DNA of 50,879 bases from Pseudomonadota bacterium (lineage in GTDB: Bacteria; Pseudomonadota; Alphaproteobacteria; Micavibrionales; UBA2020): positions 1 to 50,879 of the forward strand of contig JAZDGQ010000047.1 in the NCBI GenBank assembly GCA_043806835.1. The letters are read 5' to 3'. Below are positions 14,768 through 23,756 of the stretch, piece after piece. The notes below the pieces were generated by a model. It saw only the letters and a program-made list of their open reading frames with translations. It was not told where the DNA came from and did no database searches. The translations under genes were made by a program, and so were the position numbers. How positions within the stretch are numbered: position 1 is the first letter of the stretch; every line of letters begins with the position of its first letter.

Positions 14768-15379
14768 ATGCCCTCCCTGAAAGAGATCGTCCCCGCCGCC
14801 CTGACGCCTTTGGTGAATGCCAATATGGCGGGGCTGGTCATCGGGGCAATGTGGGTGGGAACGGCGATGCAGTGGCCGGTCATCGGGATCGGCATTGTCG
14901 TTGCCTGTTTCTCCTCCTACATCATTCCCCTCCTGATGATCCCCGTCGGGGTGTTTTCCCACTTCCTGATGGTCTACAAGGGAAAGAAACAGAAGGACAG
15001 GGAACAATTGATGTTCGTCCTGAGCGTTTCCTACATCCTGCTGTTCCTGACGCTGTGGTGCGTGGGCATTTTTGAATTTGTGACAACCCGCGTCAGTCCG
15101 GACGCCGCCCGGGCGGCAGGGCTGGTATGGGCGGATTCCGTCGCGATGCTGCCCCTGCTGATGTGGATAAACCGCGACCGTGGGAATATTTTCATCATGA
15201 CCCTGGTCGAAACCGCCCAGATCGCCCTCCTGCTGCTTTCCGCAATCAGGTTCGTCGGGATTGAGACATCCTTCTGGTCGTCTTCTGCGGTTTTTGGCGG
15301 CCTCCTGTCCCTTGTGGCGGTTCTGCTGGCTGCCCGCGAGAGAGAGTCCCTGAAAAACCCTGCGGGAGATCCGCATTAA
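14768..15379 (+). CDS. Hypothetical multi-pass membrane protein
   Basis: GGAGG SD directly upstream; about six hydrophobic segments. Confidence 0.8.
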   Translation: MPSLKEIVPAALTPLVNANMAGLVIGAMWVGTAMQWPVIGIGIVVACFSSYIIPLLMIPVGVFSHFLMVYKGKKQKDREQLMFVLSVSYILLFLTLWCVGIFEFVTTRVSPDAARAAGLVWADSVAMLPLLMWINRDRGNIFIMTLVETAQIALLLLSAIRFVGIETSFWSSSAVFGGLLSLVAVLLAARERESLKNPAGDPH

Positions 15380-15391
15380 CCATCTGTTAAC
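15376..15391 (+). promoter_or_regulatory. CtrA-binding consensus TTAA-N7-TTAAC
   Basis: TTAA CCATCTG TTAAC; both half-sites read TTAACC. Confidence 0.6.
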
Positions 15392-15414
15392 CGACAGGTG
15401 ATACCCTGAAGGTT

Positions 15415-15501
15415 AGGGGTTTTCTGTTTCCCCTGGATTCGGCTTTTTATTTGTGCCTCCTCACAACACCTTCACGCCGCCCTTTATGGGCGGTTTTTTT
15501 T
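15415..15501 (+). ncRNA. Candidate trans-acting sRNA with three hairpins and an anti-SD loop
   Basis: AGGGG/CCCCT hairpin, TTGTG-CCTCCT-CACAA hairpin, then a GC terminator with T8; no ORF in the interval. Confidence 0.5.
15476..15501 (+). terminator. Intrinsic terminator
   Basis: CCGCCC-TTTAT-GGGCGG followed by eight T. Confidence 0.8.
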
Positions 15502-15628
15502 GGTGTACGGTTTCTTCCGTCTTTGGAATCACTCTTTGTCCTTGAGGAATTCAAAGGTTAATATTTCTTAAATCCTTTATTGCTAAAATGGACGGTGCAC
15601 CACCTTTTTTCAGCAGGAGAATGAAAAT

Positions 15629-15799
15629 ATGCAGACTTCCCACCTCAAAGCCCTTAAGGAGAAGCATGAAAAACTGGAACGAAGCATTCACAAGGAGACG
15701 ACCCACCCGGCGCGCGACGCCACGCTGATTGAAAAGCTGAAAAAGGAAAAACTGCGTCTCAAGGAGAAAATCGAGCGCGTTAAAAAAACGGGCGGGTAG
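15629..15799 (+). CDS. DUF465/YdcH-like small coiled-coil protein (56 aa, below the ORF-track cutoff)
   Basis: MQTSHLKALKEKHEKLERSIHKE...LIEKLKKEKLRLKEKIERV; CAGGAG SD 9 nt upstream. Confidence 0.85.
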   Translation: MQTSHLKALKEKHEKLERSIHKETTHPARDATLIEKLKKEKLRLKEKIERVKKTGG

Positions 15800-21772: not shown

Positions 21773-22944
21773 GTTCCGACTCCCGTCTTGTCTATGACAG
21801 ATAGTACGGCTTTGGCGGCCTTCTGGCCAGGGCTTTCGGGGTCTCCGAGGCCGATCTTGATGAGCGCCTCGCGAAAATACATAAGCTGAGATGCGCGGGC
21901 GTCCCTGCGCTCCAGAAGTTCGAGGATCTCCTTCGCCATCGTCTCCACCTCGCACCGCTCCTGCAGCAGTTCCGGCACGACAGGGCGCTCCAGAAGAATA
22001 TTGACAAGATTCACATAAGGAGTCTTGATCAGCCACCGGGCCAGACAGGCTGAAATCGGGTTCACCCTGTAGGCGATGATATGCGGCGTATCCGTGATGG
22101 CGAGTTCCAGCGACACGGAGCCGGATGCCGCAAGCGCGGCCGTGCTCGCTGAAAAACAGTCGAATTTTTCCTCGTTCCGGTCGATCAGGATCGGGTTGAT
22201 GCCCTTGCCCGCGAAAAACTTCTCAAGATGCTTTCTCAGATGCGGCAGCGTCGGCACGACGATGACCGTATCCGGTCTGCGCCGCAGCACGATGGCCGCC
22301 GTCGCGCAGAATTTCTTCAGCAGACGAGAAACCTCGCTCATGCGGCTTCCGGGCAGCAGGCACAGGATCGGCTGCGTTTCCTTGATGCCGTGTTTCCAGA
22401 GGAAATATTCGCCGTTCCCCCGCTGCGACAGACGCTCCACGACCGGGTGCCCGACGAAAGTGGACGCCAGCCCGTGCCTCTCGAAATAGGGGGGCTCGAA
22501 CGGAAGCAGCGTCAGCATATGATCCAGGAACCGCGCCACTTTTTTGGCGCGCCCCGGCCTCCATGCCCAGACGCTCGGCGCGACGTAGTGGATGCACGGA
22601 ATGGTTTTCGTTTTCGATTTCACCCTTTTGACGACCCGGAAGCAAAAATCCGGGGAGTCGATTGTGACGACGGCGTCCGGCCTCGTCTTCAGTATCTCGC
22701 GGGACGTCTGCCGGATGCGCGCAAGGATATGAAACAATTTCGGCAGCACCTCGGCGATGCCCATGATGGAAATCTCTTTCATCGGAAAAAAGCTCGTCAG
22801 CCCCTCCTCCGTCATGAGGCTTCCACCGACGCCGAAAAACTCCGCATCCGGATGCTGTCCCTTCAGGGCGTGCATCAGGCTGGCGCCAAGAAAATCCCCC
22901 GACGCTTCCCCGGCGACCAGAAATATGCGGAGAGGGCGGTTCAT
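21769..22944 (-). CDS. lpxB: Lipid-A-disaccharide synthase
   Basis: VAGEASGD, IDSPDF, HYVAPSVWAWR, FVGHP, LPGSR and ASGSVSLE. Confidence 0.97.
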   Translation of the reverse strand: MNRPLRIFLVAGEASGDFLGASLMHALKGQHPDAEFFGVGGSLMTEEGLTSFFPMKEISIMGIAEVLPKLFHILARIRQTSREILKTRPDAVVTIDSPDFCFRVVKRVKSKTKTIPCIHYVAPSVWAWRPGRAKKVARFLDHMLTLLPFEPPYFERHGLASTFVGHPVVERLSQRGNGEYFLWKHGIKETQPILCLLPGSRMSEVSRLLKKFCATAAIVLRRRPDTVIVVPTLPHLRKHLEKFFAGKGINPILIDRNEEKFDCFSASTAALAASGSVSLELAITDTPHIIAYRVNPISACLARWLIKTPYVNLVNILLERPVVPELLQERCEVETMAKEILELLERRDARASQLMYFREALIKIGLGDPESPGQKAAKAVLSVIDKTGVGT

Positions 22945-23756
22945 GGCGCTTTGAATCCTGTTATAAAAAGCCCGAGCCTGTCGGCGGCGGAGACCACGTC
23001 CTCGCGGTCTAGCAGCAGGGAAGCTCCCGCTTCCGCCGCAATCCCTTCCAGCCCCGCCTCATAGGCGTGACGGAGGGTGCGAAGACCGATGGCCGGCAGA
23101 TCCATGCGCCTGTCCTGCTGCGGCTTGCAGGTCTTGACCAGCACGCCGCCGCGCCCCTTGCGGCGCAATCCCCCGCACCGTTCCAGCAGCGCGTCCGTGC
23201 CTTCCACGGCTTCGACGCCGAGCACGATTCCCTGCTGGACGACCGCCGCCTGCCCGACATCCAGCGATCCCAGAGCCTTGACGACCCTGAAGCCGTATTC
23301 CACGTCGGCTTTATTTTCGGGAGAAGGCTGTTTTTTGGTCAGAACGCCTTCGGGCGTGATAAGAGCAGGCTCGATTTCATGCGCCCCGACCAGTTTGAAT
23401 CCGTCTTTCTCCAGCTCCGCAGCAACGGCGCGCAGGAGGGAGTCATCCCCGAACGCAGCCATTCCCAGCCGCGCAAAAACCTGCAACGTGCGCCAGTCCG
23501 GTTTCATCTCCATCAATCCGGGACGCCGCACAGAACCCGCCATAACCAGCGTATCAACATTTTCCGCCTTGAGGACGCCGACGGCCTCCCCGATGGCACC
23601 AATTCTGCACCAGCGGTGGGGAACGTCATTGAGAATTTTTTTATCCGCCTGACCCAACAGCGCCAGCACGAAAAACGGTCTGCCGCCACGCTGACATGCT
23701 TCGATAAGCTTTTTAGGAAGGCCGCCGCCGCCAGCTATGATTCCGAGACGCGACAT
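22941..23756 (-). CDS. lpxI: UDP-2,3-diacylglucosamine hydrolase LpxI
   Basis: LGIIAGGGGLP, DVGQAAVV, VEAVEGTDALL and QDRRMDLPAIG; sits between lpxA and lpxB. Confidence 0.95.
   Translation of the reverse strand: MSRLGIIAGGGGLPKKLIEACQRGGRPFFVLALLGQADKKILNDVPHRWCRIGAIGEAVGVLKAENVDTLVMAGSVRRPGLMEMKPDWRTLQVFARLGMAAFGDDSLLRAVAAELEKDGFKLVGAHEIEPALITPEGVLTKKQPSPENKADVEYGFRVVKALGSLDVGQAAVVQQGIVLGVEAVEGTDALLERCGGLRRKGRGGVLVKTCKPQQDRRMDLPAIGLRTLRHAYEAGLEGIAAEAGASLLLDREDVVSAADRLGLFITGFKAP

What the first reader, a model, noticed from the sequence alone, without database searches (positions are those of the whole stretch)
15376..15501. CtrA-boxed sRNA candidate presenting a CCUCCU anti-Shine-Dalgarno loop
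Seen, in order: a perfect TTAA-N7-TTAAC (15376-15391) overlapping the upstream stop codon; a hairpin AGGGG-TTTTCTGTTT-CCCCT (15415-34); a U-rich linker GGCTTTTTAT; a hairpin TTGTG-CCTCCT-CACAA (15451-66) whose loop is exactly the anti-SD; and a strong terminator (15477-15501). Known: CtrA is the alphaproteobacterial cell-cycle regulator, and alphaproteobacterial sRNAs such as AbcR and the cuckoo RNAs use CCUCC loops to block ribosome-binding sites. Inference: a cell-cycle- or attack-phase-regulated trans-acting sRNA of about 85 nt. It could alternatively be a 3'-UTR-derived sRNA of the membrane gene.
Basis: partly seen in the sequence, partly recalled or inferred. Interest (0 to 1): 0.72.

Follow-up and report, generated by a model that had tools for sequence, protein, structure and literature searches.

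The report
Conserved CtrA-box small RNA, anti-ribosome-site seed
This is very probably a real, previously uncatalogued small regulatory RNA gene of Micavibrio-like alphaproteobacteria. It sits behind a strictly conserved binding-site motif for the cell-cycle regulator CtrA and exposes a sequence that can mask ribosome-binding sites, so it is a new example of a known kind of regulator rather than a new kind.

Summary
The window holds one TTAA-N7-TTAAC, against 0.04 expected by chance.

The unit (promoter, RNA, terminator) is conserved in 39 of 42 sampled genomes of the window's family, which is made up of Micavibrio-like MAGs. It is also present in a second family of the same order.

- **Promoter:** all 37 distinct promoters keep TTAA-N7-TTAA (one has ATAA in the second half), then 10-11 nt, then a TAnnnT -10 box. 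The spacer bases vary freely. Most genera outside the window's own also carry a second box exactly 32 nt upstream.
- **RNA:** the 5' hairpin shows compensatory changes at all five pairs. The core UUCAUCUGUGCCUCCUCGUGA is nearly invariant and mostly unpaired. It is antisense to an ideal Shine-Dalgarno sequence plus AUG. The neat CCUCCU hairpin loop is the window's own variant.
- **Genome:** ctrA and hfq are both present.
- **Rfam:** no match reaches a gathering score. BjrC1505 scores 17.5-25 bits against a threshold of 50, but it shares the same promoter geometry and a GCCUCC hairpin just before its terminator.

Expression is only suggested by low-depth contigs in metatranscriptomes. The transcription start is not mapped and no target was found.

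Verdict: a real small RNA, and a new member of a known kind (CtrA-driven anti-Shine-Dalgarno sRNAs). The mechanism is inferred.

The parts
15376..15391 (+). CtrA-type box TTAACCATCTGTTAAC (TTAA-N7-TTAA plus the TTAACCAT form), in the -35 position of the promoter. It overlaps the stop codon of the upstream ORF.
   Evidence: one match in the window, 0.04 expected. Both half-sites and the 7-nt spacing are conserved in 37/37 distinct promoters while the spacer bases vary.
15402..15407 (+). Predicted -10 box TACCCT (family consensus TATTCT, general form TAnnnT), 10 nt after the box.
   Evidence: The box-to--10 distance is 10 nt in 24 and 11 nt in 13 of 37 promoters; TATTCT occurs in 27 of 37. Its function as a -10 box is inferred.
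15413..15416 (+). Predicted transcription start (inferred, not mapped). It would give an RNA of about 86-89 nt.
   Evidence: It lies 6-9 nt after the -10 box, where conservation of the transcribed part begins (GAA..UAGG). RNA-library contigs in relatives do not resolve the start.
15415..15434 (+). Stem-loop 1 (AGGGG / CCCCU, 10-nt loop).
   Evidence: In relatives the stem is AGGAAC/GUUCCU, UGAAC/GUUCA, GAGC/GCUC or GAGCG/CGCUC. All 5 model pairs show changes on both sides, 88.6% of cells are paired, and 0/500 shuffles reach the observed values. The stem-loop is absent in three short forms (L003, L011, L015).
15435..15450 (+). U-rich single-stranded linker (GGAUUCGGCUUUUUAU), a possible Hfq site.
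   Evidence: Relatives have GGAAUUUUGA here. hfq is present in the genome. Hfq binding is inferred.
15451..15466 (+). Seed region: UUGUG-CCUCCU-CACAA. The anti-Shine-Dalgarno CCUCCU is at 15456-15461, in a 5-bp hairpin in this genome.
   Evidence: The family core UUCAUCUGUGCCUCCUCGUGA is nearly invariant. CCUCCU has a mean unpaired probability of 0.26-0.99 across the 23 sequences, at least 0.67 in 19 of them and 0.40 in the window. The stem is compatible with the data but not proven by covariation.
15477..15501 (+). Intrinsic terminator: CCGCCC-UUUAU-GGGCGG plus U8.
   Evidence: It is conserved in all homologues, with 97.8% of cells paired and occasional compensatory changes. There is no T-run on the opposite strand.

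Best explanation
The stretch 15376-15501 is a complete small-RNA gene.

**Promoter.** The -35 region is replaced by a CtrA-type box (TTAACCATCTGTTAAC). Ten nucleotides later comes a TAnnnT -10 box (TACCCT). This promoter would drive an RNA of about 88 nt that ends at a strong intrinsic terminator.

**RNA.** It has a 5' stem-loop, a U-rich linker and an accessible seed, UUUGUGCCUCCUCACAA. In relatives the seed reads UUCAUCUGUGCCUCCUCGUGA. That is the antisense of a Shine-Dalgarno sequence, a 5-nt spacer and an AUG.

**Most likely mechanism.** Phosphorylated CtrA activates transcription, so the RNA accumulates when CtrA is active; by analogy with Caulobacter this is the motile, non-replicating cell type (own knowledge, not tested for this lineage). 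The RNA, probably helped by Hfq, then pairs with ribosome-binding sites of target mRNAs and blocks translation initiation.

**Shown here:**
- the sequence elements themselves;
- their conservation across two families of the order;
- compensatory changes in stem-loop 1;
- the presence of ctrA and hfq in the genome.

**Inferred:** the transcription start, CtrA binding, Hfq dependence, trans action and the direction of regulation.

**My own odds:** real, separately transcribed sRNA 0.85; CtrA control 0.65; repression by anti-SD pairing 0.55.
For: **Conservation**
- blastn finds the 3' half in 17 of 41 relatives.
- Covariance model R1 finds the unit in 39 of 42 genomes of the family, and in four genomes (G043, G047, G056, G069) of a second family. 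Three of them show the same promoter; the G069 contig ends before it.
- An exact-pattern scan of 185,579 species returned 31 stretches: 28 Micavibrio-type or unclassified alphaproteobacterial MAGs (several mislabelled) and three chance hits.

**Promoter**
- In 37 of 37 distinct promoters the first TTAA, the 7-nt spacing and a TAnnnT 10-11 nt downstream are kept; the second half-site is TTAA in 36. The spacers vary.
- A second TTAA-N7-T(T/G)AA box lies exactly 32 nt upstream in 22 of 37.
- The same geometry is seen in promoters of the known sRNA BjrC1505 in other orders.

**RNA-level selection**
- Stem-loop 1 has changes on both sides at 5 of 5 pairs. 93.9% of cells are paired overall, against 35-58% when partners are slid, and 0 of 500 shuffles reach this.
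- G-U pairs are valid only on the + strand.
- The seed is unpaired in most ensembles.

**Genome**
- A ctrA orthologue scores above the curated cut-off and hfq is present.
- 26 of 29 TTAA-N7-TTAA sites in the genome lie outside long ORFs. Some precede a single-domain response regulator, mraW and a pilin-like gene.

**RNA libraries**
- Short contigs covering a relative's copy occur in metatranscriptomes and in one transcriptome.
Against: - **Expression:** there are no expression data for the window's organism.
- **RNA-library contigs:** the contigs for relatives have depth 2-6. They start 5-45 nt upstream of the predicted start and could be DNA carry-over or assembly breaks at the edge of the conserved block.
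- **Targets:** none identified. The best TIR duplex energies for the real seed (-36.1 kcal/mol) are no better than for flank-shuffled seeds (-36 to -40). No near-perfect second site exists in 26 genomes.
- **Seed variant:** the window's seed has lost the anti-AUG (UAU instead of CAU).
- **Hairpin 2:** it has no significant covariation, and a rival stem fits as well.
- **CtrA binding:** it is assumed from the motif alone.
- **Possible leader role:** in several relatives the next gene's ribosome-binding site follows the terminator within 15-45 nt. This leaves room for a leader-type role.
Confidence: 0.6

Rival explanations
1. It is a cis-acting 5' leader or attenuator of the downstream alpha/beta-hydrolase (and DUF465) genes. 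The CtrA-type promoter would drive those genes, the terminator would set read-through, and the anti-SD would act in cis on the hydrolase ribosome-binding site.
For: - The hydrolase follows on the same strand in nearly all genera, and DUF465 follows it in several.
- In L011, L009, L013 and L002 the hydrolase start lies about 15-45 nt after the U-tract, with no room for a promoter of its own.
- One RNA-library contig runs 33 nt and another 68 nt past the terminator.
Against: - The window has lost the hydrolase but keeps the RNA gene intact, 127 nt before DUF465.
- In L006, L012 and L020 an opposite-strand gene sits between the RNA and the hydrolase.
- The 17-20-nt core is invariant while the hydrolase ribosome-binding sites differ.
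- The terminator is strong: 6-7 G-C pairs plus U8-9.
Confidence: 0.12
2. It is a real sRNA, but the TTAAC-N6-TTAAC box is bound by a regulator other than CtrA, or is only an unusual -35 element. It would then not be a cell-cycle output.
For: - No binding data exist.
- The genome encodes at least three further full-length OmpR-type response regulators.
- The Pfam check of genes next to other boxes gave only modest regulon-like hits: a receiver domain, MraW and a sub-threshold pilin motif.
Against: - TTAA-N7-TTAA and TTAACCAT are the established CtrA motifs in Alphaproteobacteria (own knowledge). A CtrA box is described upstream of the CcnA transcription start (PMC8959179).
- ctrA is present and has a near-consensus box of its own upstream.
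- There are two phased boxes 32 nt apart.
Confidence: 0.15
3. It is a 3'-UTR-derived sRNA processed from the mRNA of the upstream membrane protein (14768-15379).
For: The box overlaps that gene's stop codon and the genes are co-oriented. Homologues of this gene lie upstream in the window's genus.
Against: - A complete promoter is conserved between the stop codon and the RNA.
- Outside the window's genus the upstream gene is an unrelated Na/Pi-cotransporter/PhoU protein that ends 94-175 nt upstream, yet the RNA is the same.
Confidence: 0.04
4. It is a small protein gene on the minus strand. The reverse complement of the family core reads GAGGAGG-CACAG-ATG, a perfect ribosome-binding site and start codon.
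For: The reverse complement in most relatives has SD plus ATG.
Against: - The window has ATA instead of ATG.
- The downstream frames differ through indels (12 to more than 19 codons, unrelated peptides; read).
- No promoter fits between the hairpin and the SD.
- The G-U pairs of stem-loop 1 and the U-tract work only on the + strand.
Confidence: 0.02

Closest known systems
BjrC1505 / SmelC671 (sm84) / ReC71 sRNA family (Rfam RF02356) of Hyphomicrobiales
   Same: - It has the same promoter geometry. TTAAC-N6-TTAA(C), then 10 nt, then TAnnnT (once TATTCT itself) is visible in most of the hits I inspected.
- It has a single GCCUCC(C/U) motif in a weak 4-bp, wobble-rich hairpin just before a GC-rich terminator.
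- There are weak reciprocal hits. RF02356 scores 17.5 bits on the window and 25.1 bits on L010. My model R1 scores 13-23 bits on BjrC1505 loci at the right place.
   Different: - All scores are far below the 50-bit gathering score.
- The seed context differs: UGUGCCUCCUCGUG against GACGCCUCCCUGUU.
- One 5' hairpin, or none, instead of two.
- The neighbours differ, and no DUF1465/rcdA gene exists in this genome.
- The papers I read that mention this family do not give it a function beyond a predicted target, and PMC3927594 does not mention CtrA at all.
CcnA of Caulobacter crescentus (PMC8959179)
   Same: [quoted passage not shown] It uses a C-rich loop (CCCC) that pairs with G-rich ribosome-binding regions of mRNAs, and so feeds back on the cell cycle.
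   Different: - CcnA is 182 nt and lies inside the replication origin.
- It frees the ctrA RBS and sequesters the gcrA one.
- No sequence similarity was detected.
- The window's seed pairs with the ctrA TIR of its own genome over only about 5 nt (my reading).
Anti-SD sRNAs of alpha-rhizobia: AbcR1/2 and the 'cuckoo' family SmelA075/SmelA099 (CCUCCUCCC loops; PMC3927594)
   Same: They have an exposed CCUCC-type anti-Shine-Dalgarno seed, a terminator with a U-tail, and probable Hfq dependence.
   Different: - Those RNAs carry two to four hairpins, each with the longer CCUCCUCCC loop, and have other promoters.
- No Rfam match for them appears here.
- Here the motif occurs once and extends into an anti-start-codon stretch.

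Membership tests
BjrC1505 (Rfam RF02356) | Covariance-model score at or above the curated gathering score (50 bits) | tested here: not met
   17.5 bits on the window. The best relative scores 25.1 bits and the others are not reported at E<=1. There is no match in the own genome at E<=0.001.
BjrC1505 (Rfam RF02356) | CtrA-type box at the 5' end of the model, followed by a -10 box | tested here: met
   Genuine members show TTAAC-N6-TTAA(C)-N10-TAnnnT. The window and all relatives show the same. This may be the general geometry of CtrA-activated promoters, so it is weak evidence of common descent.
BjrC1505 (Rfam RF02356) | GACGCCUCCCUGUU hairpin directly before the terminator | tested here: inconclusive
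   Here the sequence is UGUGCCUCCUCGUG/CACA. The position and stem length are the same and the letters differ. R1 aligns the two regions at 13-23 bits.
BjrC1505 (Rfam RF02356) | Location upstream of rcdA (claimed only in earlier notes of this scan) | tested here: not met
   No DUF1465 (PF07323) gene is found in this 97%-complete genome. The neighbours are a membrane protein or Na/Pi-PhoU upstream, and an alpha/beta hydrolase and DUF465 downstream.
CcnA (Caulobacter) | CtrA box in the promoter | tested here: met
   Met at sequence level only. The CcnA feature is taken from PMC8959179.
CcnA (Caulobacter) | Gene lies within the replication origin; C-rich loop pairs with the ctrA and gcrA 5' UTRs | tested here: inconclusive
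   The origin was not located. The own ctrA TIR (AAGGAGUGCGGCCAUG) offers only about 5 contiguous pairs to the seed. gcrA was not examined.
Hfq-dependent trans-acting sRNA (general class) | Own promoter, intrinsic terminator with U-tail, conserved accessible seed, hfq in the genome | tested here: met
Hfq-dependent trans-acting sRNA (general class) | Discrete transcript and at least one base-pairing target | tested here: inconclusive
   Only low-depth contigs in RNA libraries of relatives. The target search does not rise above shuffled controls.
Cuckoo / alpha-r14 anti-SD sRNAs | Several hairpins, each with a CCUCCUCCC loop | tested here: not met
   A single CCUCCU; no Rfam hit.

The most novel reading that the evidence does not exclude
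The Micavibrio-type RNA and the BjrC1505 lineage would be diverged descendants of one ancient alphaproteobacterial gene: a CtrA-activated small RNA whose anti-SD (here anti-SD plus anti-AUG) seed damps translation of a set of mRNAs whenever CtrA is active. In these putatively predatory bacteria it would help shut down growth-phase protein synthesis in the free-swimming attack stage. It would be the functional counterpart of Caulobacter CcnA in lineages where no CcnA homologue is known.
Probability: 0.25. Interest if true: 0.7.

Novelty: new member of a known kind. Interest (0 to 1): 0.5.

Why it matters
Micavibrio-like bacteria are obligate predators of other bacteria (own knowledge; the lifestyle of this MAG is not shown). 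I found no paper in the searchable library on their small RNAs or on CtrA control in them.

A small RNA wired directly to the CtrA motif, with two phased boxes and an invariant seed, is a concrete and testable handle on how their life cycle is coupled to translation.

It also adds an independent lineage to the few sRNAs with a CtrA box in their promoter (CcnA; BjrC1505 by promoter sequence only). This strengthens the idea that an RNA arm is a regular part of the CtrA regulon.

It does not reveal a new mechanism.

Tried and rejected
- **Rfam.** Nothing reaches a gathering score in the window. Permissive scans give only sub-threshold hits. Those to suhB/mmgR, 'Betaproteobacteria toxic sRNA' and anti-hemB rest on the terminator alone, or on it plus a short UGCCUCC seed match.
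- **RNAalifold on a MAFFT alignment.** It predicted only the terminator, because the 5' part was misaligned. A model-guided alignment was needed.
- **Hairpin 2.** The loop-presenting stem (90.4% of cells paired) and the rival GUGA/UCAC stem (89.0%) are both compatible. Neither is supported by covariation, because the core hardly varies.
- **Targets.**
  - RNAduplex over all GGAG-type sites was dominated by GC-rich coding sequence.
  - An ungapped complementarity scan gave nothing convincing.
  - For 2,097 crude gene starts, the real seed did no better than 10 flank-shuffled seeds.
  - An 18-mer search in 26 genomes found no second site with fewer than 2 mismatches (one 2-mismatch site, in G003); all 0-1-mismatch matches are the RNA genes themselves.
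- **Expression.** No public run holds the window's own sequence. Contigs from RNA libraries of relatives could not define the RNA ends.
- **rcdA synteny,** suggested by earlier notes of this scan, is absent.
- **My guesses that two box-adjacent genes are fliL and flaG** were not confirmed by Pfam.
- **Minus-strand small ORF** was rejected (see rival explanations).

Full report
**1.

- TTAACCATCTGTTAAC at 15376-15391, overlapping the TAA stop of the + strand ORF 14768-15379;
- AGGGG/CCCCT at 15415-15434;
- the U-rich linker at 15441-15450;
- TTGTG-CCTCCT-CACAA at 15451-15466;
- a CCGCCC/GGGCGG terminator with eight T at 15477-15501.

The window contains one TTAA-N7-TTAAC, where shuffles give 0.04. 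The 2.1-Mb genome contains seven TTAAC-N6-TTAAC. The terminator is the best call of the pattern scan. The stretch folds better than its shuffles, z = -2.9.

**2. It is a conserved gene, not a chance cluster of motifs**

- blastn of the 141-nt stretch found its 3' half in 17 of 41 relatives.
- An exact pattern (TGTGCCTCCTC, a gap, GCGGTTTTTTT) scanned over one genome for each of 185,579 species returned 31 stretches. Three are chance hits. The other 28 are MAGs labelled Micavibrio sp., Alphaproteobacteria, Proteobacteria, 'Bdellovibrionales', Rhodospirillaceae/Rhodospirillales, plain 'bacterium', and one mislabelled Patescibacteria. 'Bdellovibrionales' is where NCBI still files Micavibrio.
- A covariance model of the 3' module (R1) found the unit in 39 of 42 sampled genomes of the window's family. 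It also found it, at 35-45 bits, in four genomes of a second family of the same order. Three of those show the same promoter; the fourth contig ends before it.
- Weaker hits in two further families are a different RNA or lack the box.

**3. Promoter anatomy**

In all 37 distinct promoter sequences:
- the first half-site is TTAA (37/37);
- the second is TTAA (36/37; once ATAA);
- the spacing between them is always 7;
- the seven spacer bases vary;
- the base after each half-site is mostly C;
- a TAnnnT hexamer (TATTCT in 27) follows after 10 nt (24 cases) or 11 nt (13 cases).

This places the box at about -38 to -23. From my own knowledge, CtrA boxes of CtrA-activated Caulobacter promoters lie in this position, overlapping the -35 region.

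In 22 of 37 promoters a second, slightly degenerate box (TTAA-N7-T(T/G)AA) lies exactly 32 nt upstream, about three helical turns. The window's genus lacks this distal box, because the upstream ORF runs right up to the proximal one.

The genome encodes a CtrA orthologue at 398.7 bits, above the 350-bit cut-off of NF045991; of 14 control genomes only Caulobacter passes that cut-off. Upstream of ctrA itself lies GTTAACCAAGATTAAT.

Of the 29 TTAA-N7-TTAA sites in the genome, 26 lie outside long ORFs. Some precede a single-domain response regulator, mraW and a pilin-like gene. This is only modest support for a CtrA regulon.

**4. RNA anatomy**

Transcripts would start shortly after the -10 box (GAA.CUAGGAAC in most relatives). 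They would be about 65-115 nt long, and about 88 nt in the window.

*The 5' stem-loop varies in sequence but keeps pairing.* Stems seen are AGGAAC/GUUCCU, AGGGG/CCCCU in the window, UGAAC/GUUCA, GAGC/GCUC and GAGCG/CGCUC. On a model-guided alignment of 30 distinct sequences:
- all five pairs show changes on both sides;
- 88.6% of cells pair, against 35-58% for the whole structure (both helices) when partners are slid;
- no shuffle out of 500 reaches the observed values.

The caveat is that this alignment was fitted to the structure, and a few rows, including the window's, are one register off. Three lineages lack the stem-loop altogether.

*The core is nearly invariant.* It reads UUCAUCUGUGCCUCCUCGUGA. 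Its complement is GAGGAGG-CACAG-AUGAA, that is a Shine-Dalgarno sequence, a 5-nt spacer and a start codon. The window's version, UUUAUUUGUGCCUCCUCACAA, keeps the anti-SD but not the anti-AUG.

*How the seed is presented.* In single-sequence ensembles CCUCCU has a mean unpaired probability of 0.26-0.99; it is at least 0.67 in 19 of 23 sequences and 0.40 in the window with my assumed start. The window's clean 5-bp hairpin is its own variant. Elsewhere a wobble-rich stem with a bulge (AUC-U-GUG/CGU-GAU) and a rival GUGA/UCAC stem are both about 90% compatible, and neither is supported by covariation. Where the rival stem is broken (the window, L003, L015), two of the three (the window and L015) strengthen the loop-presenting stem by G-U to G-C or U-G to U-A changes; L003 does so only partly (my reading).

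hfq is present.

**5. Context and rivals**

Outside the window's genus the order is Na/Pi-cotransporter-PhoU gene, RNA, alpha/beta hydrolase, and in several genomes DUF465, all on one strand. Inside the genus the upstream gene is the 203-aa membrane protein. In the window the hydrolase is missing, so DUF465 follows after 127 nt.

- *3'-UTR origin:* this arrangement rules it out, because a different upstream gene goes with the same promoter.
- *Leader or attenuator of the hydrolase:* in some relatives the hydrolase ribosome-binding site follows the U-tract within 15-45 nt, so a leader role cannot be dismissed for the ancestral arrangement. Against it, the RNA persists unchanged where the hydrolase is lost (the window) or separated by an opposite-strand gene (L006, L012, L020).
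- *Minus-strand micro-ORF:* rejected. The window has no ATG, the frames are not conserved, and the G-U pairs and the U-tract work only on the + strand.

**6. Expression**

No public run holds the window's sequence. Copies from two other genera are held by metatranscriptomes and by one transcriptome.

Short contigs of 151-190 nt cover them:
- L002: 1393-1552, 1398-1558 and 1403-1591;
- L013: 1437-1607 and 1492-1631.

Several end in or just after the U-tract, which fits termination there. However, they begin 5-45 nt upstream of the predicted start, at the edge of the conserved block, and their depth is only 2-6. DNA carry-over or assembly breaks explain them equally well. The transcription start remains a prediction.

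**7. Targets**

Nothing convincing was found.
- Duplex scans of the own genome are dominated by GC-rich sequence.
- Over 2,097 crude gene starts the real seed does no better than flank-shuffled seeds.
- No near-perfect second site exists in 26 genomes.

One lead: in three genomes of another genus, the spacer before an icmD/dotP-like gene, next to an icmJ/dotN-like gene, contains two blocks almost identical to the reverse complement of the RNA. The protein names are my reading, and Pfam gave no hit. The window's genome has the gene but not the complementarity.

**8. Comparison with known families**

*Rfam.* It holds nothing that reaches threshold.

*BjrC1505 (RF02356)* is the nearest. It scores 17.5 bits on the window and 25.1 bits on one relative, against a gathering score of 50.

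Earlier notes of this scan claimed that BjrC1505 has a CtrA-box promoter. I checked this on 27 loci from other orders. Most of the hits I inspected do show TTAAC-N6-TTAA(C), 10 nt and TAnnnT, followed near the 3' end by GACGCCUCCCUGUU and a terminator. My model R1 hits several of these loci at the right place, but weakly, at 13-23 bits.

So the two RNAs work alike and may share ancestry. The window's RNA still fails the membership test, and the rcdA synteny reported in those notes is absent here.

Published work treats BjrC1505/SmelC671 as a conserved rhizobial sRNA. One preprint confirms it by Northern blot and cites a predicted target, acetolactate synthase. PMC3927594 does not mention CtrA at all.

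[quoted passage not shown] It is the closest functional analogue, but it is longer, lies within the origin of replication and is unrelated in sequence.

**9. Verdict**

This is a real, conserved small-RNA gene that is absent from Rfam and that I did not find described for this lineage. It has a CtrA-type promoter and an anti-ribosome-binding-site seed.

It is a new member of a known kind. The mechanism (CtrA activation, Hfq-assisted translational repression) is inferred from anatomy and analogy. Expression, transcription start and targets remain to be shown.

Noticed in passing
own genome, contig C138:2113-2144 and about 350 nt downstream (outside the window): A second promoter has the same geometry (TTAACTTCCTGTTAAC-N10-TATTCT-GGAAC). 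It is followed by a 67-aa ORF (MTDVSGTSYQ...) and a terminator. The ORF's TIR, GGAGGGUCACAGAAAUG, resembles the complement of the family seed.
   Followed up: partly
L130:3181-3260 (G019:C1, about 635.2 kb); also L131 and L132: In three genomes of another genus, the spacer between tandem icmD/dotP-like small membrane genes, beside an icmJ/dotN-like gene, holds two blocks nearly identical to the reverse complement of the sRNA: GGCGGGGTGAA-ACGTCACG, and GCACAGATGAA over the start codon. This could be a target or the evolutionary source of the sRNA. The blocks are absent from the window's genome.
   Followed up: partly
own genome, contig C7 about 22840-22990, minus strand: The 5' UTR of the icmD-like gene is built of repeated ACUA / CUAGGAAC units (GTTAACTAGGAACTAGGAACTACACTAAG...). 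CUAGGAAC is also the conserved 5' start of the sRNA in relatives.
   Followed up: no
L084, L092, L099, L101 (families f5/f6 of the same order): A different conserved promoter-to-terminator unit (ttatgtaaattaa[ag]aatataagg ... ctggtacccgtaaa ... terminator), without a CtrA box or CCUCC. It is probably another uncatalogued small RNA.
   Followed up: no
window 15559-15599: TTAATATTTCTTAAA, then 11 nt, then TAAAAT lies in front of the DUF465 gene (15629-15799). It looks like a degenerate CtrA-type promoter; the two perfect TTAA halves are spaced by 6, not 7.
   Followed up: no
L049:1403-1420 (own genome C45, about 75 nt before ctrA): GTTAACCAAGATTAAT (TTAA-N7-TAAT, containing TTAACCA) lies upstream of ctrA. 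This is compatible with autoregulation.
   Followed up: no
L002:2568-2639: A sub-threshold Rfam match to the Leu_leader family (31.9 bits against a gathering score of 50), resting on a strong terminator about 1 kb downstream of the relative's sRNA.
   Followed up: no
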